Shown: positions 4,624 to 52,887, counted from the first letter of the stretch. The stretch: DNA of 64,000 bases from Acidobacteriota bacterium (GCA_040007715.1 JBDTUN010000921.1:4761-68760); one strand, 5' to 3'. Notes: a model not told the origin generated them from the sequence alone. Translations and numbers: made by a program.

Positions 4624-4842
4624 CTGAGATGCTCAATGAAGTTTGCCCGCTGAAATGCTTCGTGAAAGCGCTATGTCTAATTGGTCATCTGAACAACTTG
4701 AGATGTTAAACGAAGCGTATCAATCTCAAGACCAAGATTCGTATGAATGGGTTAAAGGCTTGTGACGAAAACTTCCGCAATAGATGAGTTATATACTCTG
4801 ATTAATGTCATGGTCGCCCAAGTTACAAGTCGCTTGAATAAT

Positions 4843-5161: not shown

Positions 5162-5210
5162 TATGATCATTTTTCCATCCACAAGTCGCGGGAATTGCCG
5201 AAAACATCTT

Positions 5211-33560: not shown

Positions 33561-33783
33561 CACGGCAGCAGCTCTCTGCGGAAAGAACCTATGCCTTACA
33601 TATTTGTCCGAAGCTCTGGTCAGCGTTGAGTGCTACAAAGGACAGGAACAGAAAGTTGCGCGGCAGGGAAACCACCTAGGCTAGCGATGCTTTGCCTGCC
33701 TGCAATCTGATGTGGCGCACGAAAGCCAGCCAGTGAAGTCGTTGATCTCAGGGCACACGCTTATTTCGGGAAGGGAGATAGCT

Positions 33784-39317: not shown

Positions 39318-39663
39318 TGCTTCGGCTCTGAAGTAAGGTTAGCGGGGCAGCAAATTTTAGGTCGGCTTATCACGACTGACCAGCTACAGGATGAGCGCAG
39401 TTTTCTCAGTTCTGTACAAGTCCCGGAATACTCTCTCGCAAAACTTCGGGGGCACCGTAGTTTGGAAGCTCGGGGAAAGGAAACGCGTAGAGTAACCAGT
39501 CTCAAATTCCTTCGAATTCGGCGTGCCTGAATTTTAGTGTCCGGCAAATTTCCGTGACTGTCCGCAAAGTTTGATCGGATACGCCTTCTGGGATTTTTAC
39601 CTCAATTTCCAGCGTGACTTTGACCCTTGTGCCGCGCCAACTCTTCTAGGCGAACCTGATTAT

Positions 39664-40090
39664 TCATCCTTTCGTATCATTCGGGAGTCGGTAGGCGTGA
39701 ACGCCGGAGCTTTGAACTGATACTAACAATTTGGCATCGTATAAAACCTTGGTGTCGGCACTTTCACAGTCAATCCAGAAGCCCTGCCCAGAATATAAGC
39801 TGATCCGCTTCGCGGGCGAAAGTCCATCTTTTATGCCTTTCGTCTGGGCGAAGGGGAGCAATACTTTGCGTCCGATAACATTGATTACGTAATTTGTCCT
39901 TCAGTTTTACCGGTTGTGGCAGCCTACTTTGGTTGAAACGCTCGTATTTGAAGTTCAGCACAGTCTCACCACATCCGCACGATGAGCCGCTCTCATTGTC
40001 GAAGAAACAGAAGAGGGTTTCACCAGGGATAGTCCCGTAATTTTCAAGGGCCTTGCCAGCAATTCGAGCATGAAAGGATATTCTCACCAT
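39664..40090 (-). pseudogene. Frameshifted hypothetical gene in a low-GC patch (two overlapping minus-strand ORFs 39770-40090 and 39664-39861 in different frames)
   Basis: Each ORF has a plausible protein-like half (…GTIPGETLFCFFDNESGSSCGCGETVLNFKYERF… and …[37 protein letters not shown]…). Each runs on into the other frame as nonsense. Local GC is visibly lower than the flanks. Confidence 0.3.
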
Positions 40091-40100
40091 CAGGGGTTAG

Positions 40101-40610
40101 CTACGAAAAGGCAAATACTAGAATGTGCTGAAGGCTTTTGTCGGCAAGAAGCTTTTCCAGAGATCCAATGCGGCTTTCGGGCGTGTCAATTAGAACAATC
40201 CAGGTTACCCACTCCCGCGAGTACGCGGCTGTCTGGCCTATCAGCCTATCCCTCTCGACCTTTATGAGATTGACCTTGACTTCAATGGCAAGCAAATCAT
40301 CAATTAGAATATCGGGCTTGCCCTCTCTCGTACTTGGAAACATCTCAATCCCCAAATCGGTTTCTTTGGCAAGATATTCGAAGAGATCGTTAACGTACTC
40401 ATCTTCGGCTTCAAAGTGATCCGGCTCCCAGTCATCCAGGATGGGCGCGACCTCGGTGCAAACTTCTTCCACGCCGTCAGGGTCATCCCGTTCCGCCCGG
40501 CTCTTCTTCGCCTCGTCGTGCTGATTTTTTACCCACCACGCGCCGGTGAACAACCCGCTGGCGGCCCACAAAAGATGATCAAGTTTTATCTTTGAGTCGT
40601 TCATTCGCAA
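40101..40610 (-). CDS. Small PD-(D/E)xK (restriction-endonuclease-like) protein
   Basis: EDEYVNDLFEYL...GKPDILIDDLLAIEVKVNL...QTAAY, i.e. the E / PD / ExK / QxxxY motifs. 169 aa with an N-terminal hydrophobic segment. Confidence 0.45.
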   Translation of the reverse strand: MRMNDSKIKLDHLLWAASGLFTGAWWVKNQHDEAKKSRAERDDPDGVEEVCTEVAPILDDWEPDHFEAEDEYVNDLFEYLAKETDLGIEMFPSTREGKPDILIDDLLAIEVKVNLIKVERDRLIGQTAAYSREWVTWIVLIDTPESRIGSLEKLLADKSLQHILVFAFS

Positions 40611-40803
40611 AAGCTGGTTCCACCGCCAATCGCCATTCGAATAGCTGCCTCACTCAAGGTTGACGAATACGCACACCACTCGGCGGCGATTTCATGAAAC
40701 ATCCCCCCTGACTTGTGGTCAGATGTTCTTTGGGAAGCAACTCGGCAATTTTCGGGACTGGCATGTTGGCGAGTTTCTTAACTCGGCATCCAGTAGTCGG
40801 CCC

Positions 40804-41712
40804 TCACCTCACGCCTAAACCACCGATGACCTTACGGAGTTCGGTACAGACGGGGGCGATGGCTGCGGACAGATTGCTGTCCCCGCTGTAAACATATGTC
40901 AGGGGCGTCACTCCAAGTATGTCGGTAGGGATTTTTACATCGGTATTCTGCTCCTTCACGATGAAAGTGCGACTCCGTTCAAGTCTGCCCATAAATAATC
41001 CAAGTTCAAACACCGTATTGTCGCGCGGGGCGTTGTATTCATTCTCTCGGCTAAAGACCTTATCGTCCGGGCTAAACACGAACACTGCGAAATCCGCTTC
41101 GTTTACCATATTCAAAAGCGTTTCGACGGGGATGCTTGACGGGCCAAACACGCCGTCCGTCCAGACGACGGCTTCGACGTTGTCGTATTTGAGTCCGAGT
41201 TGGATCTCCTGAGCTATCGCCCGGCTCTCGACGGAACATCCAAGGAATAGAAGAGGCTTCGTGTTCGGGTAGTTCAAGAGGGTGGATCTTTGGCGCAACC
41301 GCTCGGCGACAATCTGGGCAATAACGCGCCAGACTTGCGGATAATCTTGCGCCACCTGATGAAAGTCAGGCTCAGATACTTTCAGCGCCACTACCGGTGA
41401 GCGGGCGGTCAGACTAGCCGATCTGGGTTCAGTGGGGCTGAGGAGCGACATCTCCCCGATTGACTCGCACGCAACACGAACTGCGACCTGGCGGCCGTTG
41501 ACAAGCACATTAACTTCGCCGACCAGAATAAAGTAGACGTCGTTATCTTCCGCGCCTTGGGCCATGATCGCGTCGCCGGTCTCGAATGAAACTAATTGCC
41601 CCACTTCAGCGAGTCGGCTTGCAAGCGCCTCGTTGTGTTCTACAAGCGGGCAATTCTGTAGTGCGGTGATCAGACGCCGCTGTCCATCGGTTCCTTCAAA
41701 TCGTTTCTTCAT
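40804..41712 (-). CDS. cNMP-binding domain fused to a TIR-like (CAP12/Pycsar-effector-type, PF10137-like) domain: Pycsar effector-like protein
   Basis: N-terminal CAP/cNMP-binding fold (FETGDAIMAQGAEDNDVYFILVGEV...IGEMSLL...RSASLTA). The C-terminal ~150 aa read LLFLGCSVES...DFAVFVFSPDD...RDNTVFELGLFMGRL, the pattern of the predicted nucleotide-binding TIR-like family. Confidence 0.6.
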   Translation of the reverse strand: MKKRFEGTDGQRRLITALQNCPLVEHNEALASRLAEVGQLVSFETGDAIMAQGAEDNDVYFILVGEVNVLVNGRQVAVRVACESIGEMSLLSPTEPRSASLTARSPVVALKVSEPDFHQVAQDYPQVWRVIAQIVAERLRQRSTLLNYPNTKPLLFLGCSVESRAIAQEIQLGLKYDNVEAVVWTDGVFGPSSIPVETLLNMVNEADFAVFVFSPDDKVFSRENEYNAPRDNTVFELGLFMGRLERSRTFIVKEQNTDVKIPTDILGVTPLTYVYSGDSNLSAAIAPVCTELRKVIGGLGVR

Positions 41713-41789
41713 AGTTTGTCAGGCATTCTCCTTCCTACTTTTGGAGAGGGGAATGGCCACTGTGCCTATTGTAGTGTTTTTCAATTAAA

Positions 41790-42509
41790 TTAAGTGGGTA
41801 AACGGCGGCTGGAAACAAACGGGTTGTGTTTCCCGAGGTGCTTAATGAGTCTGACCAGACGCTTTGCGTGGCAATGCTTGAACTTCTTGCCACTCTTACA
41901 CGGGCAGCCCGCAGCCGGTTCTATCTCCTCTCTGCCGCTCAGCAGACCCACGAAGTTGCTGACGAGCGCGGCATCTCCCCCAAGCGCGTCCTGGACGAAC
42001 TCGATATACCCGACAATACCATGCCCCCGCTCCCCCCACGCCCAGCGCTGGTCAGGAGACGCTTCATAGATCAGTTGGCGCTCATAGAATGTTGAAACAT
42101 GGTCTAAAAAACCATGAAGGGCCATCGCTTCGCGAGCCTTCCACTGGGATTCGACCGGCAGCCACAGGCAACACCCGCCGTCCGAAAAAAAATGCCGGTC
42201 AGCGATGTGCGGAAATAGATTGCCGGTTTCGAAAGCCATCGGCTCCATCTCAGGGTAGCTATCCGGAAATACAACGCGAGTTCTCACCCGCGTCGGTATT
42301 CCGCATTCCGCACGCAGGGTGATGGTGCCGTCTAGAAAGACTTTCCTATCCGCATAATTCAGTCCGTACTTCAAGCCCGGATAGTCGCGGCGAATAAGAG
42401 CACGGTCTTGAGCGAGGCGCTCATCGCCGTCGTCTTGCTCAAACCAGCGTCGCTTCCCATCATCCTTCGGCGTATGACCGACCAGGTATAATAGTTCTCG
42501 CACTCTCAC
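41790..42509 (-). CDS. E2 (UBC)-like fold protein with C-terminal SEC-C zinc motif
   Basis: FPDSYPEMEPMAF...FPHIADRHFFSDGGCCLWLPVESQW resembles the E2 core (YPxxPP...HPN...GxICL...W). C-terminal CPCKSGKKFKHCH is a SEC-C motif. It sits between the cyclase and the effector. Confidence 0.45.
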   Translation of the reverse strand: MRVRELLYLVGHTPKDDGKRRWFEQDDGDERLAQDRALIRRDYPGLKYGLNYADRKVFLDGTITLRAECGIPTRVRTRVVFPDSYPEMEPMAFETGNLFPHIADRHFFSDGGCCLWLPVESQWKAREAMALHGFLDHVSTFYERQLIYEASPDQRWAWGERGHGIVGYIEFVQDALGGDAALVSNFVGLLSGREEIEPAAGCPCKSGKKFKHCHAKRLVRLIKHLGKHNPFVSSRRLPT

Positions 42510-44001
42510 GCTCTCTTTCGGTAATAGTCACACCAGAATTGCTGGAAGTGATAAATGCCGGTGCCCCCGCTGCGGCCGTAGCTTTCTCCGCCCGCTCTAC
42601 CTTGTCCGCAGTAAGGTCGTTTGCGACGTAACACCCGGTGCCGTTGTCATACTTGAAGTGTTTGCTCAGGCGCTCCGGCAGCGCATCGTAAATGCGCTTT
42701 GAAATGCCGATCTGACCGCCCGAGCAATTCTCTTCAAATTTCGCGGCGCTTTCTACGGGAGCGCCGAGGCAGATGCGGTCGCGGTGGGCGCGGGTGCCGA
42801 GCTTCGAGACAAGCGTCGTATCAATGTCAACGCCGACGGCCAAGCGCAGTTCTTCGGCTTCGGGAAGCTTCTCCTTGATCGTCTTCTCCATGGAGGATTG
42901 CAGCCCGACTGCGGCGTTCACCGCCTCGGTTGCAATGTCGGCCTCCTCGTTTTTCGGCAGGTGATACAGCCCCTGTACGCGGTCACCCTGAAACTGAACG
43001 CGCAGGCCGTTATAGTCGCTGGCCACCACCCTCGCCATCTCCTTGCGCACGGCGTGGAGTACGCGCAATGCGTTACGCTTGTCCTCCTCCGTCTCGGCGC
43101 GATCAATGTATGCAGTGAAGCCGGTGATATCGCCAAAGATTGAGGCTGCCAACACTCGTTTGTTATTCCAGATGCTGAGCAAGTCAAGGTCAATCAACTC
43201 ATTGGCCGAACTGTAATCAATATCTTTGAGTGGATGGTCGCGCTTATCTTGATCAACGCGCGCGCAGCTCTTTCCCCGGTCCCAGCCGATGCCGTATTCC
43301 TCAAGCAACTCATCCAACCGCTTCTGCGGCACCGCATTGATCTGGTAGACGTCTCCTTCGTCGGTCTCCGCGCAGAGTTCACGGAGATCGTCTGGGAGTG
43401 CATCGTAAACGGCCTTTGCGAGGCGCAGTCGGCCTGCCGAACTTATAATCTTGGCGGCGTAGTTGGCACAGGCACCTAGGAATAACAACTCGCGGTCATT
43501 ACGTGTGCCATTGCGGGTGCCGATTGAATCGCCAACGTCTGCGCCGCCAGCAACTGAGAAATTGTCCAAGAGCGGATACGCAGGATTGAATACCGAGGCG
43601 ACAAAATCCTTTAGCACTAACTGGAGTAGAAGAGCTTTCGTCGCCAGCTTCTTGGTTTTGTCGATCGGGCGGTAAAAGATAGCGTGCAACTTTGGTCCCT
43701 GGAAATGAATTCGAAGGCCGTCGAAGATGTCTTCGACGATGCGCGAAACCTCTCGCTGGTAAACATGGACTGCCTGGATGAATCGCTTGTAATCAGTCGC
43801 ATCGGCGATGCTTTCGCTCGCGATAGGGCTAAAGTTTGTAACATAGACATAGACGTGCGCAGCGTGAATCTCGCGGCAGCATGTCTCCGTCAACAGATTA
43901 TTGAGATCGGCCTCGCGAACGAGTTTTTCAACTTCAATCTCACCCATATTGTCGAGATGTTTGCCAATACGTTCCAGGCTGTCATTATAATTCCAGCTCA
44001 T
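42460..44001 (-). CDS. Class III nucleotidyl cyclase with tandem cyclase-homology domains (degenerate N-terminal plus catalytic C-terminal): PycC-like
   Basis: C-terminal domain: AASIFGDITGFT (metal-binding Asp motif), VQFQGDRVQGLY, LAVGVDIDTTLVSKLG, DRICLGAPVESAAKFE. N-terminal domain is degenerate (HVYVYVTNFSPI...ELLFLGACANYAAKI). Confidence 0.7.
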   Translation of the reverse strand: MSWNYNDSLERIGKHLDNMGEIEVEKLVREADLNNLLTETCCREIHAAHVYVYVTNFSPIASESIADATDYKRFIQAVHVYQREVSRIVEDIFDGLRIHFQGPKLHAIFYRPIDKTKKLATKALLLQLVLKDFVASVFNPAYPLLDNFSVAGGADVGDSIGTRNGTRNDRELLFLGACANYAAKIISSAGRLRLAKAVYDALPDDLRELCAETDEGDVYQINAVPQKRLDELLEEYGIGWDRGKSCARVDQDKRDHPLKDIDYSSANELIDLDLLSIWNNKRVLAASIFGDITGFTAYIDRAETEEDKRNALRVLHAVRKEMARVVASDYNGLRVQFQGDRVQGLYHLPKNEEADIATEAVNAAVGLQSSMEKTIKEKLPEAEELRLAVGVDIDTTLVSKLGTRAHRDRICLGAPVESAAKFEENCSGGQIGISKRIYDALPERLSKHFKYDNGTGCYVANDLTADKVERAEKATAAAGAPAFITSSNSGVTITERERESARTIIPGRSYAEG

Positions 44002-44123
44002 CTATTCCTCCCTCCCTCGTTCATCTTTGGATCGAACGGGTAAAGCGTTTGCGGGCTGTCGCCCGGTGATTTCCTGCTCAGAACGGGGATGAGCAGGACT
44101 TGGATTTCATCGCCACATTGGCC

Positions 44124-45572
44124 TTAAGCAGCCAAAGAATAATCACTAAACCTGCCGCGTCCGCCGCGCGACTGCCATAACTGGGATTGTGATACCGCGC
44201 AGCCACGACAGTGGCGGAGGGCTGCCCGCTTATTGGCGATCACGGCAAGCAAACCATAGCGTAAATCTGTGCCGACCTCATTTGGCAGCGCGGCTAATGA
44301 GCTTCCCTCAAGCTTGAGATACTCAGCCAGCAATAAGGAAGCTGCGCCGGCGGAAAGGAATGGCAGCGCGCCCTGGACAGGCGGCTTCGATTCTTCAACC
44401 GCGATATTGCCTTCCGCGCAAGGGCCGCGAAATTGGGCTGCTGGGCGAGGCAGACGGCAGAGCGTGCAGTCTTCGCGACGTGGAATATGACGCCCAGCCC
44501 CCATTCCCCAGCCGCTGGTCGTGGTCGCTTGTAAAACGATGGGCGGAAGCAGAAAAGGCACTTCTGCCCAGGCCGCATCTTCGTTCGTTAAACTGATCCA
44601 TACATCGAAGGGGTGTTCCGCCATTCGCCCCGAATGCTCGCGCCACGCGCCGACGATGGCTTGTGTATAGATGTTTTGATGAGCCAGATAGCTGTGCGCG
44701 ATGGCGGTTTTATCAGAAGCCGCAAGCGCGTCCTTGAATGTAAACATCGGTGACCTGTTCAGGTTGGAAGTCTCAACCTTGTCTCGATCAAGCAGGGTCA
44801 ACGAACCGCGTAGCGGCATTAGATCAGCCAAGTAGAGAAATGCCGAGCCGACTGCCCCAACGCCGGCCAGCAATGTTTCTCCGAGATCGAGGTGCGGCGG
44901 TGGCGGCGGCGCCTCGGCTTCTACGAATGGTTCAGTCAACAACCGATGCGACCACGTAGACCAGGAAAACTCCGGCAGCCATTGTGCGCCAGGATGTCCA
45001 ATTGCTCTCTTGAAGAGATCAGCCGCACCGAGCGAAGCTGCCAACCCGGCAGCCGCCATTGTTGCCGGTAAATCGAACTCGCCGTGGAAGCCTTGCCCCC
45101 TGCGACCCAATGCCGACCAGCCGGCAGCGTTGATGACGAAATCTTCGGGCTGTAAACCATGAGCTTGCTGGAAAGCGCCGATCAAAAGTCTCAGTCTCGG
45201 CCTTCCGTTACTGTGCGCGATCTCTTTGACCTGGAAATCTCCGAAAGGATCAGCCGTTTGCATTTCATCTTTGATTCTTTCGGCGAGAAGGTGGTAACGC
45301 CCGCGCCGGAATTGCGGGCAGAGCGCGACTTCAGGCACGATCAAACGCACATTGCGCGCCCATCGCGCCGTTAGGTTCGCGGCCAACAGAGCCATCGCTT
45401 GAACCGTCGGTTGCCCGGCACTGGAAGGATCAATCCGAATCTCGATTTCGCGTTGTGCGTAATCGGCCAGATTGGCAACTTCGAGTAGCGTGCGGTTATC
45501 ACGCTCCCTATAGAATGCCTCGGCCGAGGGCCACCGCTGTAAGGCTGCTTGCTTCATTTCTTTATTTCTCAT
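44124..45572 (-). CDS. E1-like (ThiF/MoeB-family) ubiquitin-like activating enzyme (BilD-like)
   Basis: LLAGVGAVGSAFLYLADL...LTLLDRDKVETSNLNRS is the Rossmann/ThiF signature. A CTLC pair lies downstream. 482 aa. Confidence 0.75.
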   Translation of the reverse strand: MRNKEMKQAALQRWPSAEAFYRERDNRTLLEVANLADYAQREIEIRIDPSSAGQPTVQAMALLAANLTARWARNVRLIVPEVALCPQFRRGRYHLLAERIKDEMQTADPFGDFQVKEIAHSNGRPRLRLLIGAFQQAHGLQPEDFVINAAGWSALGRRGQGFHGEFDLPATMAAAGLAASLGAADLFKRAIGHPGAQWLPEFSWSTWSHRLLTEPFVEAEAPPPPPHLDLGETLLAGVGAVGSAFLYLADLMPLRGSLTLLDRDKVETSNLNRSPMFTFKDALAASDKTAIAHSYLAHQNIYTQAIVGAWREHSGRMAEHPFDVWISLTNEDAAWAEVPFLLPPIVLQATTTSGWGMGAGRHIPRREDCTLCRLPRPAAQFRGPCAEGNIAVEESKPPVQGALPFLSAGAASLLLAEYLKLEGSSLAALPNEVGTDLRYGLLAVIANKRAALRHCRGCAVSQSQLWQSRGGRGRFSDYSLAA

Positions 45573-45579
45573 CCAGCTT

Positions 45580-46080
45580 TCATTCCCTAAAATCTTTTTC
45601 GCCGGGAATCACGACGATGTGCCGGGGCAACTCCGCCAATCCGACCACATGGAACTGGCCGTTGATATAACGGTGGATGCCGCAGCGATTGATATTGATG
45701 CCGCGCCGCCCGAAGTACGGCACGACCACCGACAGCGCGCCCTCGTGCCTGGCAAAGTTATGCTCGTCATCGAAGCGCGAATGTCTGACTTTGTGGCGCG
45801 GGTGCGAATGGGCCTGCCCGATCAAAACCAGCGGTGTGCCGACCATTGCCGCCAGCACCTGCGCATTCGCTTCCGGTGTGGTCAGGACGCAGCCGTAGCG
45901 AGTATCCGCATCCGGCACGGCCAGCGTGGTGATGATTGCTTTCGTTCCCGCTTCTATGCCGAGCCAATAAACGACACCTTCAGCTTCGCGTTCGGCTGCG
46001 AAGCTTGCTAATAGGTCAGCAGTCCGGATTAACAGCGAATCGCTGATCATCACTACCGGAAATTGATCATCCGACCGCAT
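45580..46080 (-). CDS. JAB/MPN (JAMM) metalloprotease (BilC/Cap3-like deconjugating peptidase)
   Basis: HSHPRHKVRHSRFD fits the JAMM motif HxH-x7-S-x2-D exactly. 166 aa. Confidence 0.75.
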   Translation of the reverse strand: MRSDDQFPVVMISDSLLIRTADLLASFAAEREAEGVVYWLGIEAGTKAIITTLAVPDADTRYGCVLTTPEANAQVLAAMVGTPLVLIGQAHSHPRHKVRHSRFDDEHNFARHEGALSVVVPYFGRRGININRCGIHRYINGQFHVVGLAELPRHIVVIPGEKDFRE

Positions 46081-46538
46081 CAGCTCATCCTCCCCGTTGC
46101 GTCCAGGGTCTTGGTGTGCATATCGCTGATCATCATCGCCAGTGTGGTGATCGGGCCACCATTGGGTGTAGGCAGATGCCAGTCAACTAGACGCCAATCC
46201 CCATGCGGCCCGCCGAGTTCGCCGTAGGCCCTGCGGTTGTAACGCATACACACGCAGGGTGCCGTGTGAAAGACGTTCGGGTAGAGCTGCTTCAAGCCGC
46301 GCGCTTGCCCGGCTTCATCCGTGAATTCGATAGTCGGCGGAAAAAGTGGGTATTCGCGGCAGTCGAACTCGGCGTGGAAATTCTCGCCGGCGCGATTGCG
46401 GAAAGTGACTGAGAACTTCAAATGTTCCGCACTCAGACCGCTGGCCTCGAGCACCAAATTGGCGGCGGAAACATAAGGCATCGCCTCCGCCAAGTCCTTT
46501 TGTACGGCTTCGAGCGAGATTTCTGCCGGAACACTCAT
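46080..46538 (-). CDS. E2 (UBC)-like ubiquitin-like conjugating enzyme (BilB-like)
   Basis: EYPLFPPTIEF...LYPNVFHTAPCVCMRY...W.LP resembles the E2 core (YPFKPPKVKF...YHPN...GxICL). 152 aa. Shares a stop/start junction with the JAB gene. Confidence 0.6.
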   Translation of the reverse strand: MSVPAEISLEAVQKDLAEAMPYVSAANLVLEASGLSAEHLKFSVTFRNRAGENFHAEFDCREYPLFPPTIEFTDEAGQARGLKQLYPNVFHTAPCVCMRYNRRAYGELGGPHGDWRLVDWHLPTPNGGPITTLAMMISDMHTKTLDATGRMS

Positions 46539-46855
46539 GCCGCGTTGCCCCCTTGCACCGACAGGATGAGTAGCGCGCCATCCTTCAGGTGATAGCTGGC
46601 GACGGTGCGCTCCGGTTCTAACTGCTTGTCATTGTGCAGGAGTACATACTTGTTGCCATCTTCGACGAAGCCGAAGACTTCGCGCACATCATTGATGATC
46701 TGCTGAATTTTGCTATTGAGCGCGTAGACCGGACGGCGTTGCGCATCGGGCGGTTGATCAATGCTCCATAGACCGCGCGTTGTTTGCACGCGCAAGCTCA
46801 GGCATTGGTGCTGGGGGTGCTTCTCTTCAAACTGTAACGTTTTCTCTTCGGTCAT
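46535..46855 (-). CDS. Ubiquitin-like (beta-grasp) protein ending ...ILSVQGG-NAA (BilA-like)
   Basis: 106 aa with a C-terminal GG followed by a 3-residue extension, which implies processing by the JAB protease. First gene of the Ubl-E2-JAB-E1 array; it overlaps the E2 start by 4 nt. Confidence 0.6.
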   Translation of the reverse strand: MTEEKTLQFEEKHPQHQCLSLRVQTTRGLWSIDQPPDAQRRPVYALNSKIQQIINDVREVFGFVEDGNKYVLLHNDKQLEPERTVASYHLKDGALLILSVQGGNAA

Positions 46856-46864
46856 GCTTTTACC

Positions 46865-46909
46865 TCATCAAACAAAAATGGTGAGAGCTTTTGATTTGCT
46901 CTCACCATT
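46865..46909 (-). terminator. Rho-independent terminator (minus strand): 12-bp perfect stem AATGGTGAGAGC / GCTCTCACCATT with 9-nt loop, followed on the minus strand by TTTGTTTGATG
   Basis: Read directly. Located between the stop of the helicase gene (46945) and the start of the Ubl gene (46855). Confidence 0.6.
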
Positions 46910-46944
46910 AGTGACGGACTGAAATTCTGCCGTGTGCGAAATTT

Positions 46945-49900
46945 TTATTGCGGGACGATTGCTCCTAACCAGTGCGGACACGAAACCCTGACTGGACACC
47001 CGCCACACTTGTAATCATCAACCAGAGCGACGAACTTGCCGCCGGTTAAGGCGCGCAAGCTCTCAATGGCCTTCGTTGCCTCAGCGTCCATTTTTTTAGG
47101 GTCACGATTCGGTTTAATGCGGTAGAGTCTGGCGTCCGCGCCGGAGAAGGCCCAGAACTGATTTGTTTGTTGAAACTGGCGCAAGACAACAAAAGAGACT
47201 CGCTTGTATGTCGCTTTAATGTCGCTCCAGTTCAGTTCATCGACAGCAAATTCTGAAAGGGAGTCGTGCCGGTAGATGAGCATGTGTTGCGCCCCTTGTG
47301 CATCCCGAAAGCAAGCCACGAGATCGAGGCGTAAGGGCAATAAGCCTTCTTCGTAGTTGAAAACTAAATCGTCAGCTTCTGATGCGTGCAGAAACTCCAC
47401 CGCCCCAGCATGCGGCCGGAATGCCGTGGCGAATCTTTTACTGAATGCCAAGCCGATGCGTTCGTAAAGCGCCTTGTGCGGGTGGTTCTGCCATTCCGGC
47501 TTCTGTTCGTGAAACTCGGCAAAAAAATGCTCTTCGGCCTCCGCCTCTGTAATTCGCCGCTTTTCAAGCTGAGCGCTTATGATGATCCTGCGCATTGCGC
47601 GTCTGACGGCGACAGTGAAGCGTGGGTAGTAGGCCGGTAGAGCTTCCGGGAACCGACCTCTGAGGAACTGCTCCAAGTAGGTTGCAACTCCACAAAAGCT
47701 CTTGTCGAGGTAGCGTATTGACAGATGTGCGCGTGGCTGCCGTCCCCAGAGATCATTCGTCGAGACTGATGTCTTGACGACTTCTTGCTCCGGCAGAGGA
47801 TTCTGTGGAATCGAGTAAACCGATTGCCACCGGCCTAGCAAGCCTGGTAGCTCTCGCTTATCGCCTTTGCTGGTTCGGGCTTCGGCATAGGTGATAGTGA
47901 CGGCGCGCTGGGCGCGTGTGAGGCCGACGAACAGAAGCGAGTCTGCTTGTTTACGATCCTCCTCGCTCGCTGGCATCAATGTGGGTGGCAACCACCAATT
48001 GCGCTCTTTGGTCTTATTCTTGTTGAGTGTTTGCCCGGCCACCACCACGCAGGGAAACTCCAGGCCCTTAGATGCATGACATGTCAGGACACGCACAGCG
48101 TCACTGCCTGAGCGAGGCGCGGCAGTCACTGGCTTGTTGCTGGATAGGCTATCGCGGAAGCACTGTGCAAAGCCGAGCCGCGATTCTCGGGGTCGAAGTT
48201 TTTGGTGGGTAAAACGATAACCGGCGGCGCGCGTAAGAGAAGTAATGATCTCACTCAACGCCAGCGCCTTAAGAGTTTTATCTTCTCCGCTCAAGAGGCG
48301 TCGCAGGTATACGCCGCCGTCGAACAGGAATAAGCACAATATTGCGAACGCATCGCTGCTGTGCTTCTGGCCGTGCAAGCTGGCAAACAATCGCTTGTAC
48401 TCGACGATCAAATCTGCTCCGGCGAGACGATCAGCTTCATCTTGCTCAGTGTTATCAACCTCACCCTCCGTCTCCGCCGCAGTGACCAGAAACCGGATCA
48501 CTTCGTTGAGCAATTCCGGTGCGTAGTTGCCCCTGCCGAGCGCATACACGACTCGCGGTATCGAAGCCACTCGGGCATCAGGCAGTGTCAACACTGCCGC
48601 CAAGTCACCCGCCGCGCCTTCGGGCGTGACCAGGCCGCTGATCATCGCTTTGATCTTGCGCTTACCCAAAGCCAGCACAATGTTGCGTACGTCAATGTTG
48701 CGCCGCGCGAGAACCGCGATTTCGCCAGGCTTGATCCCTTCATCGAGCCATTGCCTGATCAGTTCGGCGATGCCCTCCTGTTCCGCCGCGTCGGAGTTGG
48801 CGGCGAGGATTTGAACAGGGATCTCGCCAAACGGCTGATGATCTGATCCCGCTTCCCAGAAAGTTTGAAAGTCGCTGCTCGATTGTTCAGGCGCGGCCAT
48901 TAACGTTGCCATCTGATTCGCGGCTCGGACGACCTGCGGGCACGAACGATAATTGGAGCGCAGGTCGAAAGATTGCGCGGCTGGAAAGAGTTGCTTGAAC
49001 AGTGCGACGTTCCTGGCCGGATCGGCGCCGCGGAAACGGTAGATCGCCTGCCTGATGTCGCCGACTACCCAAGGCTGATTCCCCTCGCCGCAGATTTGCC
49101 CAAGAAGCTCGACCATTGCCAAACTGACATCTTGAAATTCATCAACTAGGACGTGCTGATATTGCTTGCGCAGTTCGGCGATGAACGTGGGGCTTTTACG
49201 TAGTGTGTTTAGCGTAAGCAGAATCAGATCGGCAAAGTCAACAGCGCTCTCATGCTTTACATCCTCGTACTTGCGGAAGAGTGCAAGGAACTGTTGCGCT
49301 TTTTGATGTACCAGCTTTTCTCGCGGTTCAGCCACTGGCATGGCGGCGACCGCTTGCTCAAGGTCGACCGGGCCATACATTCTATCCTTGAGAAAATTGA
49401 TCTGCTCGACAGCGTGCCGCGCCGTCTCTCCCGGATCGCGCAATGTGACGATTGCCTCGCATTCGACTTGGCCGAGGAGTGTTGTGAGAAGCTCTTCCTG
49501 GGCGATCTCGTCAAGAATCGAGAAGTCAGACGCCAACTTCATCGCGTGCGACAACAATCGCGCGTGGCCGAAGCTGTGGAACGTGTGAATTTCGATGCTA
49601 TTGGCGATCTCTTCATCGAACCGTTTCCCGATACGTTCACGAAGTTCGTCCGCTGCTTCGTTGCTGAAGGTGAGAATGAGAATGTGACTTGGGTCAACCT
49701 TTTCCTCTCTCAAAAGGAAGTCAACGCGCATCACCAGTGTAGCGGTCTTTCCCGTACCCGGCCCGGCATCAACGATGGTAGCGCCTTGCAGATATTCTGC
49801 CGCCCGCTGTTGCTGTTTATTCAGAGATATATCGCCAGACTTATCGATAGCCTCTGTTGCATCACCTTTGAGGAAGAGGTCGAAGAGTGCTTCAGCAAGT

Positions 49901-50421
49901 TGAACCTGAATGATCTCTACAGAGACGCCCCATTTTTCCGTGAGGCCGGTAACGATTTTGTCAGAGCCTTGCATCCAATCGGCGAAGACTAGGTCGGCTG
50001 GGCAAACGAACTCTTTAGCGAAGGCGTTGGCCTCAACCTCTTCGGCATCTTTCGGGTTATAACGGGCGATCGCGCCCGCGCCGTCGCTGGTCGTGAATCT
50101 GGAATCGCGTAGCGGATTAGGAATCGCGTGTGGCCCGATCAACCGTTGGTGAAGTTTGAGGTGGCCGAGTTCGTGGGCGAAGACAAACAGTTTTTCGGCT
50201 GGGTCGTTATCAAGCGCCTTGTCATATCTGAGCTGGCCTTTTTGTGGCAATAGCTCGGCCTTGCCGTGTTGCATTGCGTCGGCGCTAAGTGCTCGCGGTC
50301 TGATTTTGTGCTCTGTCAGCAAGTACTGTTCGAGCCTTGCTTGTAAATCTTCCGGGTGAGCGCCGATGACCTCTCTTAGTTCCCTACCCCGTCTGCGCGC
50401 AAGTTCAAGTCTTTTCATCAA
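46945..50421 (-). CDS. Fusion protein: N-terminal ImmA/IrrE-type Zn-metallopeptidase, UvrD/PcrA-like SF1 helicase, C-terminal Cas4/AddB-type nuclease with Cys cluster
   Basis: HELGHLKLHQ...EEVEANAFAKEFVCP (HExxH peptidase, DUF955/M78-like). DAGPGTGKTATLV (helicase Walker A) and further SF1 motifs. C-terminus VALVDDYKCGGCPVRVSCPHW (CxxCx5C). 1158 aa. Confidence 0.7.
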   Translation of the reverse strand: MMKRLELARRRGRELREVIGAHPEDLQARLEQYLLTEHKIRPRALSADAMQHGKAELLPQKGQLRYDKALDNDPAEKLFVFAHELGHLKLHQRLIGPHAIPNPLRDSRFTTSDGAGAIARYNPKDAEEVEANAFAKEFVCPADLVFADWMQGSDKIVTGLTEKWGVSVEIIQVQLAEALFDLFLKGDATEAIDKSGDISLNKQQQRAAEYLQGATIVDAGPGTGKTATLVMRVDFLLREEKVDPSHILILTFSNEAADELRERIGKRFDEEIANSIEIHTFHSFGHARLLSHAMKLASDFSILDEIAQEELLTTLLGQVECEAIVTLRDPGETARHAVEQINFLKDRMYGPVDLEQAVAAMPVAEPREKLVHQKAQQFLALFRKYEDVKHESAVDFADLILLTLNTLRKSPTFIAELRKQYQHVLVDEFQDVSLAMVELLGQICGEGNQPWVVGDIRQAIYRFRGADPARNVALFKQLFPAAQSFDLRSNYRSCPQVVRAANQMATLMAAPEQSSSDFQTFWEAGSDHQPFGEIPVQILAANSDAAEQEGIAELIRQWLDEGIKPGEIAVLARRNIDVRNIVLALGKRKIKAMISGLVTPEGAAGDLAAVLTLPDARVASIPRVVYALGRGNYAPELLNEVIRFLVTAAETEGEVDNTEQDEADRLAGADLIVEYKRLFASLHGQKHSSDAFAILCLFLFDGGVYLRRLLSGEDKTLKALALSEIITSLTRAAGYRFTHQKLRPRESRLGFAQCFRDSLSSNKPVTAAPRSGSDAVRVLTCHASKGLEFPCVVVAGQTLNKNKTKERNWWLPPTLMPASEEDRKQADSLLFVGLTRAQRAVTITYAEARTSKGDKRELPGLLGRWQSVYSIPQNPLPEQEVVKTSVSTNDLWGRQPRAHLSIRYLDKSFCGVATYLEQFLRGRFPEALPAYYPRFTVAVRRAMRRIIISAQLEKRRITEAEAEEHFFAEFHEQKPEWQNHPHKALYERIGLAFSKRFATAFRPHAGAVEFLHASEADDLVFNYEEGLLPLRLDLVACFRDAQGAQHMLIYRHDSLSEFAVDELNWSDIKATYKRVSFVVLRQFQQTNQFWAFSGADARLYRIKPNRDPKKMDAEATKAIESLRALTGGKFVALVDDYKCGGCPVRVSCPHWLGAIVPQ

Positions 50422-51391
50422 GGTTTCCTTTTTTCGCCAAGTCCAACCAGTATTCCTTTACCTTCTTCGGCAAATTGGACCGTTCGATCCTATCAATGAA
50501 GCTTGAAACGCCTGGTGGATACGGCGACTTTCTGAGCGCCGCGACTTTGGCCTCTGCGCGCGAGCCACGGCTCGCGGCTCGCCTCAGCCTAGTTTTGTCG
50601 AGACTGTAACTGCGCGCGAACCGGTCAATGATCTCTTCCCGCACTGGGATGGGCGTGAGATCGTAATGATCTTCAACGTAGACCATCACTACATCGGGAA
50701 TGTCATTGTCACTAGCAATCTTCTCCTCTGCGAGACCGGTATGATCCGTCAATAGCCGCATCAGATCATCGTCGGCATCCTCATCCGACTCGTTCGCTGC
50801 CAATTTTTCGACTGGGGTTGCCGGATGATTGGATGTGCTGCCGCTCTTCTGTTTTGCCGTTTGCGCCGCGCCTTTGGCCTGCGCAAACCCCTCGCTCTCT
50901 AACCACTGCTTGGTTTGCTCGATTGACTGCGCCGCTACGCCTGATGGCAATGGCTCATCCAACTCGCTGTCAACGAGTAGGGTGAAGAAGTCATAAAGCT
51001 CGTCTTTGAATTGCGGATATTGATCGGCCAATTGATCCGCCAACTGGTGATCCTGCTGTTGTAGCCAAGCCGTCTCGATACGGGCATAGAGCTGCTCCAG
51101 CGCGATCTGTTGTAAAGCAATCACGCCAATATCCGCATCCAGTCTTTGCCAGTGTAAGCCGTCGCCCGATGGCGAGACCTCCACTTGCGTCAGTTCGTCG
51201 GTCGAGCCTTGCGCTAATTCTTCAACGGCCAACGGCGAGAAGCTAAAGCTCTCCTCGTTTTGCAGGCGCACAACGACCAAGCCGGATTCGCGGTCGTAGT
51301 GGGCGTGCCGGGCGCGCGGTTCAACGGCATGAGCGGCAGCGGCTGCGCGCTTGGCCTTCTCGTACTGCTCGTCAAACATTTTGTCATCCAT
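50405..51391 (-). CDS. DUF2442-domain protein with long acidic C-terminal extension
   Basis: N-terminal LVVVRLQNEESFSFSPLA...DGLHWQRLDADIGV resembles DUF2442. Overlaps both the upstream DUF4160 gene and the downstream helicase gene. Confidence 0.45.
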   Translation of the reverse strand: MDDKMFDEQYEKAKRAAAAAHAVEPRARHAHYDRESGLVVVRLQNEESFSFSPLAVEELAQGSTDELTQVEVSPSGDGLHWQRLDADIGVIALQQIALEQLYARIETAWLQQQDHQLADQLADQYPQFKDELYDFFTLLVDSELDEPLPSGVAAQSIEQTKQWLESEGFAQAKGAAQTAKQKSGSTSNHPATPVEKLAANESDEDADDDLMRLLTDHTGLAEEKIASDNDIPDVVMVYVEDHYDLTPIPVREEIIDRFARSYSLDKTRLRRAASRGSRAEAKVAALRKSPYPPGVSSFIDRIERSNLPKKVKEYWLDLAKKGNLDEKT

Positions 51392-51623
51392 GGATTTCTC
51401 TCCACTTTCTCAGCAGAAACAGATGGCGCTCTTCCACAATCGCCACGGCGCGGCGTGCATCGGGACGGTTCATCCACACTTCCCTGATTGCTAGCGGTTC
51501 TGTTTCGCTGCCTAGGTTGATGATGATCTGTTCGTTATCTTTGACAACGTGCACATGGGGCGGGCGGTGATCGCGCGTGTAAATCCTGACTTCAAAACCA
51601 TCTTGCATTAACACGACGGGCAT
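51384..51623 (-). CDS. DUF4160-family small protein (partner of DUF2442)
   Basis: MPVVLMQDGFEVRIYTRDHRPPHVHVVK... is the DUF4160 signature. 79 aa. Confidence 0.55.
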   Translation of the reverse strand: MPVVLMQDGFEVRIYTRDHRPPHVHVVKDNEQIIINLGSETEPLAIREVWMNRPDARRAVAIVEERHLFLLRKWREIHG

Positions 51624-51667
51624 ATGATGACTGGCTCCTCCGCTTCATCGTAATCTGCTCCGGTTGG

Positions 51668-52507
51668 TTACTTGCCTTGATAGCGGTTTCGCAACCAGTC
51701 GAGATCAAGCTCTTTCTCTTTTTGCTTAATCAGCGCCGCGAAGAGCTTGGCCCGTGCTTGTTTAAGCGTACGCGAGATGCGATAGCGGTCAATCTCCAAT
51801 TGCTCCGTCAGCGGCAGATTGCCAGTCTCCGAACGGCCTGATGAGATCGGTGAGGGATCAGGGCCGAATTGATCCTCGGCAACTCGGCGCATTAACGGGT
51901 CTTTGAATTCAGCGATGGTGCGACGAACGAAATCTTCGAGCCAGGGTACTTTGCTTTGGCGCATCGCTACGTGCCAGGGGATGGAGTCGTCGGCGACTTC
52001 CAAAGGATCACTCTCCATACCGGACCCTGGATCAATCACCATTTCCACCCGCTCGCCCCTGATCTTTTCGCCGCGCCTGCCGTTCAGATTGCGCCAGCCG
52101 TCCTCAAAACTGTGTTTGCAAAATGTTACCCAGTTGGTTTCGGCAAATGCTCCCCTCTCTGTCGGCAAAGTCCTGACAATCTCTTTAATCGCCTCCTGAA
52201 ATAAGTCCTCAGCGTCGTAGGCATATTGGCCTCGCGCGACCCGTTGCTTGGCCAGTTTTCGCACGACCAGCAAGTAGATCTCGCGGTGTCTAGTTGCTAC
52301 CAGCCGTTCCAACGTTACGCGCGCCGCCGCACCCACTCCGGCGCTGGCGAGTTGCCGAAAAGACTTTGCCAATACAGGTGCCGGTAGCTCGCTCGCTGTA
52401 GCCGTATCAAGCAGATGTAAATATTCGGGTGAATCAAGTGGCGGCAGTGCAGCGAAGATCATTTCATAGGGTTTCACTGCTGCTGCCGGCGTTTGCAATA
52501 AATCCAT
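51668..52507 (-). CDS. Sigma-70/ECF-like RNA polymerase sigma factor-like protein (tentative)
   Basis: C-terminal HTH-like region (LTEQLEIDRYRISRTLKQARAKL) resembling sigma region 4, and a region-2-like helical segment upstream. Weak call. Confidence 0.3.
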   Translation of the reverse strand: MDLLQTPAAAVKPYEMIFAALPPLDSPEYLHLLDTATASELPAPVLAKSFRQLASAGVGAAARVTLERLVATRHREIYLLVVRKLAKQRVARGQYAYDAEDLFQEAIKEIVRTLPTERGAFAETNWVTFCKHSFEDGWRNLNGRRGEKIRGERVEMVIDPGSGMESDPLEVADDSIPWHVAMRQSKVPWLEDFVRRTIAEFKDPLMRRVAEDQFGPDPSPISSGRSETGNLPLTEQLEIDRYRISRTLKQARAKLFAALIKQKEKELDLDWLRNRYQGK

Positions 52508-52887
52508 GCCTGCTCCTAATCAGTTTACATCTTGAAAGGCAGCCTCCCTTCTGATGAGCAATTAGAGTCACGGACAGAGAAAGGCTTATGTGCAAGAAAA
52601 ATATCGGGCGTTCAAGTGGTATCTTCTAATCATGATTTTGGCGTCATTCAGTGTCCTGAAGAGTGCATTCTGTAATGATCTTGCAGGGGCTTGGCCGGGA
52701 TTGGCATAAGGATGCTTCCCAAGCAAGGCAAAGCCTATGTCTGTCTTGGCGGTGGGTCAAGGTAATTGCCTAAAGAATTGGGTATGGGTGCTTGTGCTTT
52801 ATGAAGGGTAGTTGCTGTTGGCAACAGAAGGCTAAGCGTTAAAAGCGGTCAAGTGTTGCGTATCGAACCTTGCTTCGAGTGGCAATT

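What the first reader, a model, noticed from the sequence alone, without database searches (positions are those of the whole stretch)
40804..46855. Pycsar-like cyclase/effector pair directly abutting a complete Bil-like Ubl-E2-JAB-E1 operon, with an extra E2-like/SEC-C protein between the cyclase and its effector
On the minus strand, in order, lie:
- Ubl-GG (46535-46855);
- E2 (46080-46538);
- JAMM peptidase (45580-46080);
- ThiF-type E1 (44124-45572);
- a 123-bp gap;
- a tandem-domain class III cyclase (42460-44001);
- a second E2-fold protein ending in a SEC-C zinc motif (41790-42509);
- a cNMP-binding + TIR-like effector (40804-41712).

The first four genes match the Bil (bacterial ISG15-like) defence architecture. 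The cyclase and cNMP-TIR effector match Pycsar. The arrangement is reminiscent of type II CBASS, where a nucleotide cyclase is regulated by E1/E2 and JAB proteins. A cyclic-nucleotide system physically and probably transcriptionally joined to a stand-alone Ubl conjugation cassette, plus a second E2-like/SEC-C gene inside the cyclase-effector pair, is not an arrangement I recognise as described. It could be one composite system or two adjacent systems.
Basis: partly seen in the sequence, partly recalled or inferred. Interest (0 to 1): 0.85.

Follow-up and report, generated by a model that had tools for sequence, protein, structure and literature searches.

The report
Two adjacent defence systems, not one
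The seven genes are real, but they belong to two separate anti-phage systems that sit side by side in one narrow lineage: a self-contained cyclic-nucleotide (Pycsar) module with its own E2-like regulator, and a ubiquitin-like conjugation operon whose true partners are four genes upstream of the flagged region, including a peptidase-helicase fusion.

Summary
All seven ORFs and their domain calls are confirmed. The composite reading is not.

**Pycsar module.** PycC, the E2/SEC-C protein and PycTIR recur as a compact module in 10 independent contexts (37–73% E2 identity). None has a Ubl, E1 or JAB nearby. An E2 link to a Pycsar-like cyclase subclade is already described.

**Ubl operon.** Ubl–E2–JAB–E1 is a distant Bil relative.
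- M78-peptidase/UvrD-helicase fusion: 39/43 loci
- DUF2442 protein: 28/29 loci
- sigma-like protein: 27/28 loci

**Adjacency.** PycC follows E1 in only 4/48 loci, all from one shallow clade (E1 82–87% identical to the window's). The closest E1 relative (89%) carries a caspase-helicase cassette there instead. DNA homology with that relative ends at E1's stop codon. The Pycsar module therefore occupies a replaceable slot next to the operon.

**What may be new.** The helicase-linked, Bil-like eight-gene operon has no description I could find. Shared transcription of the two modules is not excluded.

The parts
51668..52507 (-). 279-aa sigma-70-like protein; first gene of the conserved block that ends with E1
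   Evidence: Weak sigma70-ECF region-2 hit, 5e-7, below the curated cutoff. A homologue is present upstream in 27/28 E1 loci with enough DNA. The distant subfamily locus L068 has a clear Sigma70_r2 protein in the same position.
51384..51623 (-). 79-aa DUF4160 / DhiT-like small protein
   Evidence: PF13711 8e-10; NCBIfam toxin_DhiT 2.7e-5, below cutoff. Overlaps the next gene by 8 bp. Present in close relatives. tblastn detects it in only 8/29 loci, but it is a short protein.
50405..51391 (-). 328-aa protein with an N-terminal DUF2442 domain
   Evidence: PF10387 3.6e-9. Found upstream of the helicase in 28/29 E1 loci. Overlaps the helicase gene by 17 bp.
46945..50421 (-). 1158-aa fusion: M78 (IrrE/CapP-type) metallopeptidase + UvrD/SF1 helicase + C-terminal 4-Cys (Cas4/AddB-like Fe-S) domain
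   Evidence: Peptidase_M78 5.5e-11 and UvrD-helicase 2.2e-60. Precedes the Ubl gene in 39/43 E1 loci at 37-86% identity. Invariant in 17 homologues: HExxH, Walker A, DEFQD, and C910/C1139/C1142/C1148. No invariant nuclease acidic or Lys residues.
46535..46855 (-). Ubl (BilA-like), single beta-grasp, ends ...LSVQGG-NAA
   Evidence: Invariant C-terminal QGGNA across the family. The profile hits ubiquitin. Natural Ubl-E2 fusions keep QGGNA at the junction.
46080..46538 (-). BilB-type E2 (YPLFPP...FH..PC95xC97...H112)
   Evidence: AF2 model pLDDT 82.7; top PDB hits are BilB chains 8tz0_D, 8tyz_C and 8tz0_C, prob 0.99-1.0. hhalign versus E. aridi BilB: 69%, E=4.5e-5. Invariant Cys and His residues.
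45580..46080 (-). JAB/JAMM peptidase (BilC-like)
   Evidence: Prok-JAB 1.1e-6 and BilC 1.5e-8. The HSH-x7-S-x2-D motif is intact.
44124..45572 (-). E1 (BilD-like ThiF adenylyltransferase with an N-terminal extra domain); last gene of the conserved block
   Evidence: ThiF 8e-9, BilD 6e-13, PDB 8tyz_A 5e-11. GVGAVG, DRDKVETSNLNR and two CxxC motifs are present. DNA homology to the Pycsar-less relative L083 ends at 44123, at the E1 stop codon.
44002..44123 (.). 122-bp junction between the two modules (cassette boundary)
   Evidence: Homology breakpoint. No consensus promoter or terminator on the minus strand. Contains a 7-bp perfect hairpin, CTGCTCA..TGAGCAG, and a GGGAGGGAGG Shine-Dalgarno sequence before PycC.
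42460..44001 (-). PycC: tandem class III cyclase (degenerate N-terminal half, catalytic C-terminal half) with a conserved C-terminal tail ...IPxRSYAEG
   Evidence: PADLOC PycC 1.2e-121. Halves homologous at 99.2%; the N-terminal half lacks both metal-binding Asp residues. The tail is conserved in 9 diverse homologues.
41790..42503 (-). E2-fold protein with a C-terminal SEC-C zinc knuckle; overlaps the PycC 3' end by 44 bp
   Evidence: PADLOC 'E2' 6e-35 and SEC-C 4e-5. UBC/UEV fold. Invariant H104, C111, C112 and CxC...CH. Always follows and overlaps PycC.
40804..41712 (-). PycTIR effector: N-terminal cNMP-binding domain + C-terminal CAP12/Pycsar TIR domain
   Evidence: PF00027 2e-14 and PF10137 8e-28; PADLOC TIR effector 9.5e-113. 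FELG motif present.
40101..40610 (-). 169-aa protein of unknown function that travels with the Pycsar cassette in this lineage (affiliation uncertain)
   Evidence: No family hits. Homology with L001, L085 and L087 runs to its end. A 51%-identical homologue directly follows E1 in L033 with no Pycsar in between.

Best explanation
The region holds two separable defence modules placed back to back in a mobile-element defence island.

**Module A (40804-44001): an E2-regulated Pycsar.**
- PycC is a pseudo-heterodimeric tandem cyclase with one active site. On infection it makes a cyclic mononucleotide.
- The nucleotide binds the CNBD of PycTIR. The TIR domains then assemble and degrade NAD+, stopping phage production. 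(Inferred from characterised Pycsar and Pucsar TIR effectors.)
- The E2/SEC-C protein controls PycC through its invariant Cys111/112. The likely route is engaging, and possibly processing and covalently attaching, the cyclase's conserved C-terminal tail. (Inferred by analogy with E2-only CBASS.)

**Module B (44124-52507): a Bil-like Ubl-conjugation operon.**
- JAB trims the NA(A) tail to expose Gly-Gly. E1 adenylates the Ubl, the BilB-type E2 carries it, and it is conjugated to a target, probably a phage protein. (Inferred from Bil.)
- This cassette is constantly coupled to a sigma-like protein, a DUF4160/DUF2442 pair and a CapP-type M78 peptidase fused to a UvrD helicase. These most likely form its DNA-sensing regulatory or targeting arm.

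**Adjacency.** The position immediately 3' of E1 is a slot where different defence cassettes are exchanged. The Pycsar module landed there once, in a recent ancestor of this lineage.

**Shown:** gene content, folds, catalytic motifs and co-occurrence statistics. **Inferred:** all the biochemistry.
For: Module A is autonomous.
- The PycC-E2-PycTIR order, with a PycC/E2 overlap, recurs in L004-L010, L088, L089 and the P0032 place at 37-73% E2 identity.
- No Ubl, E1, E2a or JAB lies in the flanks.
- The module often has its own HTH+M78 or LexA-like regulators.

Module B is a different unit.
- Upstream of the Ubl cassette: helicase in 39/43 loci, DUF2442 protein in 28/29, sigma-like protein in 27/28.
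- PycC lies downstream in only 4/48 loci.

The slot is swappable.
- The 89% E1 relative (9 contigs) has a caspase-DEAD helicase cassette 28 bp after E1. The 82% relatives carry Pycsar.
- Homology with L083 stops at the E1 stop codon.
- Genes downstream of E1 differ in nearly every locus.

Catalytic motifs are intact throughout. Folds are confirmed. Natural Ubl-E2 fusions link the Ubl to E2a, not to the SEC-C E2. The two E2s are unrelated at profile level.

Published mechanisms: E2-CBASS (PMC12948482; 10.1101/2022.05.25.493364), Bil (10.1101/2023.09.26.559546), E2-linked Pycsar-like clade (10.64898/2026.08.12.744502).
Against: - The two modules are on the same strand, 122 bp apart, with no recognisable terminator or promoter between them. 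Co-transcription is therefore possible.
- In this lineage the Pycsar module lacks the HTH+M78 regulators seen beside several stand-alone copies, so it may depend on the upstream operon for expression.
- The locus samples come from pattern-based scans and include some near-duplicates (for example L029/L030/L080 and L035/L036). The counts overstate the number of independent observations.
- No biochemical step was tested.
- The PycC C-terminal residue is not a conserved Gly: tails end AEG, AGE, ASE, GETK, ADEA or TGEA.
Confidence: 0.85

Rival explanations
1. Regulatory piggy-backing. The modules are biochemically independent. In this lineage the regulator-less Pycsar cassette is transcribed by read-through from the Bil-like operon, so it falls under that operon's sigma/M78-helicase control.
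For: - Same strand, 122-bp gap, no terminator-like site, strong Shine-Dalgarno sequence before PycC.
- Stand-alone E2-Pycsar copies frequently carry their own HTH+M78 (CapH/CapP-like) or LexA-like regulators. These are missing here.
- In the 89% relative the replacement cassette starts only 28 bp after E1, which suggests that cargo in this slot is generally expressed from upstream.
Against: - The consensus promoter and terminator scan is uninformative for Acidobacteriota.
- The gap contains a 7-bp hairpin that could be a terminator or an operator.
- Several stand-alone copies (L006, L008-L010) also show no obvious dedicated regulator.
Confidence: 0.25
2. This would be a single type II CBASS-like system in which the stand-alone E1, JAB (and Ubl) regulate the Pycsar cyclase, with the SEC-C E2 as the dedicated E2 for the cyclase.
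For: - Physical adjacency and shared orientation in the window and four close relatives.
- The PycC tail in this lineage ends in Gly.
- Type II CBASS, and a described 'Type II Pycsar', use E1-E2 plus JAB to modify their cyclase (PMC11601596).
Against: - Co-occurrence is confined to one shallow clade: 4/48 E1 loci and 0/10 independent E2-Pycsar contexts.
- The closest E1 relative lacks Pycsar.
- The homology breakpoint falls at the E1 stop codon.
- E1 co-varies with its own Ubl and BilB-type E2, including natural Ubl-E2 fusions.
- E2-only CBASS needs no E1 or JAB (PMC12948482).
Confidence: 0.06
3. The SEC-C E2 is a second, alternative E2 for the Bil-like Ubl, widening its target range, rather than a partner of the cyclase.
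For: It has a UBC fold with conserved Cys and His residues, and here it lies within 2.5 kb of an E1 and a Ubl.
Against: - It always travels with, and overlaps, PycC, and never accompanies a Ubl or E1 elsewhere.
- None of the 71 metagenome E1 loci has it.
- It matches PADLOC CBASS-type E2 models, not BilB.
Confidence: 0.03

Closest known systems
Pycsar (PycC + PycTIR), specifically the E2-associated 'Pycsar-like-4' subclade / 'Type II Pycsar'
   Same: - Full-length PycC-family tandem cyclase and a CNBD-TIR effector.
- A conserved neighbourhood with an E2-like gene, which is the defining trait of the Pycsar-like-4 subclade (10.64898/2026.08.12.744502).
   Different: [quoted passage not shown] PMC11601596 describes Type II Pycsar as using a fused E2-E1.
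- Here the E2 is a 237-aa stand-alone UBC domain with a SEC-C zinc knuckle. No E1 or JAB belongs to the module.
- I did not place this PycC in that paper's tree.
E2-CBASS (type II 'short' CBASS, e.g. Serratia marcescens CdnG-E2)
   Same: - A signalling cyclase, a single E2-only accessory and an effector, with no E1 or JAB.
- The cyclase has a conserved C-terminal tail, like the E2-binding C-terminus of CdnG (PMC12948482).
   Different: - The signalling enzyme is a class III nucleotide cyclase, not a CD-NTase.
- There is no detectable sequence similarity to SmE2 in the PDB.
- The tail does not end in a conserved Gly.
- Covalent cyclase-E2 linkage is untested.
BilABCD (Type I / Type II bacterial ISG15-like Ubl conjugation systems)
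   Same: - Gene order Ubl-E2-JAB-E1.
- The E1's only PDB sequence relative is BilD, and the E2 model's top structural hits are BilB.
- The Ubl has a conserved Gly followed by a short extension, as in Type II BilA (10.1101/2023.09.26.559546).
- M78-type (CapP) regulators are known next to 15% of Type II Bil operons.
   Different: - Sequence similarity is remote: BilB 1e-3, BilA no hit.
- The cassette is essentially always embedded in an eight-gene block with a sigma-like protein, DUF4160/DUF2442 proteins and an M78 peptidase fused to a UvrD helicase/4-Cys domain.
- I found no description of this arrangement.
CapH/CapP DNA-damage-responsive regulators of CBASS, Pycsar and Bil operons
   Same: - An M78/IrrE-type metallopeptidase with an intact HExxH motif lies just upstream of the defence operon.
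- The distant subfamily L068 has the classical separate HTH + M78 pair in the same place.
   Different: - Here the M78 domain is the N-terminus of an 1158-aa SF1 helicase.
- The HTH partner is replaced by a DUF2442-domain protein, and a sigma-like gene is added.

Membership tests
Pycsar | PycC-family class III nucleotide cyclase | tested here: met
   PADLOC PycC PDLC00765 1.2e-121 over 1-511 of 513 aa; Pfam Guanylate_cyc 1.7e-9. Tandem domains, with the C-terminal one catalytic.
Pycsar | Cyclic-nucleotide-binding effector (CNBD-TIR or TM) in the same operon | tested here: met
   cNMP_binding 2e-14 plus CAP12-PCTIR_TIR 8e-28; PADLOC TIR effector 9.5e-113. The effector follows the cyclase and E2 in 9 of 10 independent contexts.
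Pycsar | Product is a cyclic pyrimidine mononucleotide (cCMP/cUMP) and the system protects against phage | not testable with these tools
A preprint predicts ATP preference for the E2-linked subclade (10.64898/2026.08.12.744502), so the product is open.
E2-associated Pycsar ('Pycsar-like-4' / 'Type II Pycsar') | Conserved linkage of the cyclase gene to an E2-like gene | tested here: met
   The E2 gene overlaps the PycC 3' end in every locus examined.
E2-associated Pycsar ('Pycsar-like-4' / 'Type II Pycsar') | E2 fused to E1 and/or an (inactive) JAB domain, or accompanied by a JAB peptidase | tested here: not met
   The 237-aa protein is a UBC core plus helices plus a SEC-C knuckle. No ThiF or JAB lies in 62 flanking ORFs of 7 stand-alone loci, nor in L088, L089 or the P0032 place. 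This is an E2-only variant.
E2-CBASS (type II short CBASS) | CD-NTase (cGAS/DncV-like) signalling enzyme | tested here: not met
   The signalling enzyme is a class III cyclase. It is therefore not CBASS, although it probably works like one.
E2-CBASS (type II short CBASS) | Single E2 with a catalytic Cys as the only accessory; covalent link to the cyclase C-terminus | tested here: inconclusive
   The E2-only architecture and invariant H104/C111/C112 are met. A conserved cyclase tail is present but has no conserved terminal Gly. The covalent linkage is not testable here.
BilABCD | Operon order Ubl-E2-JAB(DUB)-E1 with catalytically intact enzymes | tested here: met
   Order and 4-bp, 1-bp overlaps and a 7-bp gap. 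JAMM motif, E1 adenylation motifs and E2 Cys/His conserved.
BilABCD | E1 and E2 homologous to BilD and BilB | tested here: met
   E1: BilD 6e-13 (PADLOC) and 8tyz_A 5e-11. E2: top three Foldseek PDB hits are BilB, prob 0.99-1.0; hhalign 69%. Sequence similarity is remote.
BilABCD | Ubl with a conserved C-terminal Gly (plus a removable extension in Type II) | tested here: met
   Invariant ...LSVQGG-NA(A) in 12 homologues. The motif is retained at the junction of natural Ubl-E2 fusions.
BilABCD | Placement inside the Type I or Type II clade; four-gene autonomous system with demonstrated anti-phage activity | not tested
   No phylogeny with reference Bil proteins was made. There was no BilA hit, and the BilB hit was only 1e-3. 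The cassette is almost never autonomous here: helicase upstream in 39/43 loci.
Type II CBASS-like composite (cyclase regulated by E1/E2/JAB) | Co-inheritance of the cyclase with the E1 and JAB genes across lineages | tested here: not met
   4/48 E1 loci carry PycC, all from one clade with E1 82-87% identical to the window's. 0/10 independent E2-Pycsar contexts carry E1 or JAB. The 89% E1 relative lacks Pycsar.

The most novel reading that the evidence does not exclude
The conserved eight-gene block (window 44124-52507) would be an undescribed, helicase-coupled class of Bil-like Ubl-conjugation defence system. Its genes are a sigma-like protein, a DUF4160 protein, a DUF2442 protein, an M78-UvrD-4Cys fusion, Ubl, a BilB-like E2, JAB and a BilD-like E1. 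In this reading, a CapP-type peptidase fused to a DNA helicase senses invading or damaged DNA and either switches on or directs Ubl conjugation. The 3' end of the block would be a cassette-exchange hotspot, and the regulator-less defence modules that land there (E2-Pycsar here, a caspase-helicase in the nearest relative) would come under the block's control.
Probability: 0.35. Interest if true: 0.65.

Novelty: new variant of a known kind. Interest (0 to 1): 0.42.

Why it matters
- **It removes a false lead.** There is no evidence here for a cyclic-nucleotide cyclase governed by a free-standing ubiquitin-like cascade.
- **An untested minimal system.** The E2-only Pycsar module (cyclase, E2/SEC-C, TIR effector) recurs and has a conserved cyclase tail. 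It could show whether E2-mediated control of signalling enzymes, known from CBASS, also applies to an unrelated cyclase fold.
- **A new link to test.** A Bil-like conjugation cassette is constantly joined to a peptidase-helicase fusion and a sigma-like protein in dozens of soil-bacterial loci. That suggests a direct connection between DNA sensing and ubiquitin-like conjugation in bacterial immunity.
- **A place to look for more systems.** The exchange slot after E1 could be mined for further defence cassettes.

Tried and rejected
- **Megablast of the 6-kb region** against plasmids and E. coli genomes: no match.
- **Viral-contig scans** with the E1 and E2/SEC-C profiles: nothing. Neither module looks phage-borne.
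- **Promoter/terminator consensus scan** of 39500-47200: counts are at or below shuffle expectation, and there is no minus-strand site in the E1-PycC gap. This says nothing either way about co-transcription.
- **dn169 as the ancestral last gene of the Ubl operon**, which would prove an insertion. jackhmmer and clustering of the ORFs downstream of E1 found a homologue directly after E1 only in L033. That is suggestive but too thin.
- **Sequence-only PDB searches for E2a** gave nothing significant. The fold had to be established by structure prediction.
- **A JAB-like ORF near the stand-alone triplet in L004** (phmmer E=0.005 among 62 ORFs): it has no Pfam support, so I rejected it.
- **An active PD-(D/E)xK nuclease at the helicase C-terminus:** only the four Cys residues are invariant, not the catalytic acidic or Lys residues. 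I call it a 4-Cys domain only.
- **Literature searches** for a helicase- or M78-UvrD-linked Bil operon returned nothing relevant. The library lacks most subscription-journal papers, so absence of a description is not proven.

Full report
**1.

The seven minus-strand ORFs are at the stated coordinates. Profile searches support each assignment.
- JAB: Prok-JAB 1e-6 and BilC 1.5e-8.
- E1: ThiF 8e-9 and BilD 6e-13.
- PycC: PADLOC PycC 1.2e-121 over the full length.
- E2/SEC-C: PADLOC CBASS-type 'E2' 6e-35 plus SEC-C 4e-5.
- Effector: cNMP_binding 2e-14 plus PF10137 8e-28.

The two weakly supported genes needed extra work.
- The Ubl family has an invariant C-terminal LSVQGG-NA, and its profile hits ubiquitin.
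- The first E2 has no significant sequence hit in the PDB. Its AlphaFold model (pLDDT 82.7) has the three BilB chains of the solved Type II Bil complex as its top PDB hits (prob 0.99-1.0, TM 0.57-0.68).

Further checks:
- The SEC-C protein's model (pLDDT 76.5) has a UBC/UEV fold.
- PycC really is a tandem cyclase. Its halves align at 99.2% hhalign probability, and the N-terminal half has lost both metal-binding aspartates.
- Catalytic motifs are intact in JAB, E1, both E2s and the TIR domain.

Small corrections: the E1-PycC gap is 122 bp, and the SEC-C E2 probably starts at 42503. The window is from an Acidobacteriota MAG.

**2. The Pycsar genes and the 'extra' E2 form one self-contained module**

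I scanned species-representative genomes with a profile of the SEC-C E2 and looked up contigs for individual homologues. This gave ten independent contexts at 37-73% E2 identity: L004-L010, L088, L089 and the P0032 place.
- In every one, PycC is followed by the E2 gene, which overlaps its 3' end.
- In nine of the ten, the CNBD-TIR effector comes next.
- None of 62 flanking ORFs in seven of these loci is related to the window's Ubl, E2a, JAB or E1, and none carries ThiF or JAB domains.
- The other three contexts lack them too.

These modules bring their own regulators or extras:
- HTH + M78 (CapH/CapP-like) pairs in L004, L088 and L089.
- A LexA-like repressor in L007.
- An additional cNMP-binding cyclase in L005, L088 and P0032.
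- A PycTM effector in L089.

The PycC C-terminal tail (...GAPAF...AR..IPxRSYA..) is conserved across this range, although its last residues vary.

**3.

A metagenome scan with an E1 profile returned 71 loci at 33-69% E1 identity. Mapping the window's proteins onto them gave these counts.

| Question, among E1 loci with enough flanking DNA | Result |
|---|---|
| M78-UvrD helicase upstream | 39/43 |
| 328-aa DUF2442 protein upstream | 28/29 |
| 279-aa sigma-like protein upstream | 27/28 |
| PycC downstream of E1 | 4/48 |

These counts pool the 71 scan loci with the six contig-lookup loci that carry E1 (77 in all). The four loci with PycC are L001 and L085-L087. None of the 71 metagenome loci carries PycC, the SEC-C E2 or PycTIR.

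In 17 helicase homologues at 37-86% identity, the M78 HExxH motif, Walker A, DEFQD and four C-terminal cysteines are invariant.

A distant subfamily (L068, E1 33% identical) has, in the same position, a Sigma70_r2 protein, an HTH protein and a stand-alone M78 peptidase. These precede a Ubl-E2 fusion, JAB and E1. The sigma and M78 partnership is therefore old in this family, and the helicase fusion is derived within one clade.

Natural Ubl-E2 fusions that keep QGGNA at the junction tie the Ubl to the BilB-type E2. They also imply cleavage after Gly-Gly, presumably by the JAB peptidase.

**4. The adjacency is a recent, single event at an exchange slot**
- The four loci with PycC after E1 (L001, L085-L087) share about 83% DNA identity with the window across the whole region.
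- The closest E1 relative (89%, found on nine contigs) has the identical upstream block. Twenty-eight bp after E1 it carries a caspase-DEAD helicase, a 390-aa protein and a YdjM-like protein instead.
- Its 8.5-kb homology with the window (86%) ends at window 44123, at E1's stop codon.
- Genes downstream of E1 differ in nearly every other locus.
- Beyond the Pycsar cassette the window also diverges from its Pycsar-bearing relatives. They carry SNF2/DUF1156 genes where the window has PLD-like and 549-aa genes.
- The neighbourhood contains an IS66 transposase, a relaxase, and Shedu-like and PLD/ZacB-like genes. This is a mobile defence island.

**5. How it most likely works**

*Module A* (inferred from characterised Pycsar, Pucsar and E2-CBASS):
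- PycC makes a cNMP from its single active site.
- The CNBD of PycTIR binds it, and TIR assembly depletes NAD+.
- The E2, through Cys111/112, holds or primes the cyclase via its conserved tail. In S. marcescens E2-CBASS the E2 processes the cyclase C-terminus and becomes covalently linked to it (PMC12948482; 10.1101/2022.05.25.493364).

*Module B* (inferred from Bil, 10.1101/2023.09.26.559546):
- JAB exposes Gly-Gly.
- E1 and the BilB-type E2 conjugate the Ubl to a target.
- The sigma-like protein, the DUF4160/DUF2442 proteins and the CapP-like M78-helicase provide DNA-responsive control or targeting.

None of these steps was tested here.

**6. Comparison with what is known**
- An E2 association already defines a described Pycsar-like cyclase subclade ('Pycsar-like-4', 10.64898/2026.08.12.744502). 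'Type II Pycsar', with a fused E2-E1, is named in PMC11601596. The present module is an E2-only version with a SEC-C knuckle. It parallels E2-CBASS in architecture but uses a different cyclase fold.
- The Ubl cassette is a remote Bil relative. CapH/CapP regulators are known beside 15% of Type II Bil operons.
- I found no description of the sigma/DUF2442/M78-UvrD embedding. The searchable library is incomplete, so this does not prove it is undescribed.

**7. Verdict**

The composite interpretation is not supported. What remains open is possible co-transcription of the two modules (rival 1) and the function of the helicase-linked Bil-like block, which is the more novel object in this region. I rate interest as moderate, at 0.42.

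Noticed in passing
window 44124-52615: An 8.5-kb block (279-aa sigma-like gene through E1) is conserved as a unit at 86% DNA identity in a relative that lacks the Pycsar module. At protein level it is conserved in about 30-40 metagenome loci.
   Followed up: yes
L083:9477-14235 and L084 (relatives of the window): In the closest E1 relative (89%), the slot after E1 holds a Peptidase_C14 (caspase)-DEAD helicase fusion (1033 aa), a 390-aa protein and a YdjM-like protein instead of Pycsar. This may be another defence cassette.
   Followed up: partly
window 40101-40610: The 169-aa ORF has no family hit. By eye it has an N-terminal hydrophobic helix and a D...EVK (PD-(D/E)xK-like) motif. It travels with the Pycsar cassette here, but a 51% homologue directly follows E1 in L033 with no Pycsar present.
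   Followed up: partly
P0217, P0231, P0262 (homologues of window 46080-46538): These are natural Ubl-E2 fusion proteins of 237-263 aa with ...VQGGNA retained at the junction. L068:8725-9450 looks like a fusion too.
   Followed up: partly
L068:6710-11383: A distant subfamily of the same Ubl operon has Sigma70_r2, HTH and stand-alone M78 peptidase genes upstream instead of the DUF2442 and M78-UvrD fusion genes.
   Followed up: partly
L005:7399-8490, L088:5557-6669, P0032 place: A second gene encoding a cNMP-binding domain fused to a cyclase sits directly upstream of PycC in several stand-alone E2-Pycsar loci. It may act as a signal-amplifying relay cyclase. It is absent from the window.
   Followed up: no
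window 35141-39317: An overlapping gene pair on the minus strand. The 869-aa protein has a PLD-like domain (PLDc_2 4.5e-7; PADLOC ZacB 1.2e-13). The 549-aa protein has no family hit. This may be a further two-gene defence system.
   Followed up: no
window 25671-33560: A giant 2629-aa ORF. Its C-terminus matches PADLOC PDC-M60C (2.7e-18) and a CBASS 'PN-superfamily' effector model (1.6e-13).
   Followed up: no
window 33712-35073: A 453-aa ORF with weak Shedu SduA C-terminal similarity (Pfam 5e-4, below cutoff; PADLOC SduA 1.1e-6).
   Followed up: no
window 53744-55258 and 58381-60699: An IS66-family transposase and a MobL/MobA-type relaxase flank the island, which is consistent with an integrative or mobilisable element. 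GC content drops to 0.44-0.50 in window 1-6000.
   Followed up: no
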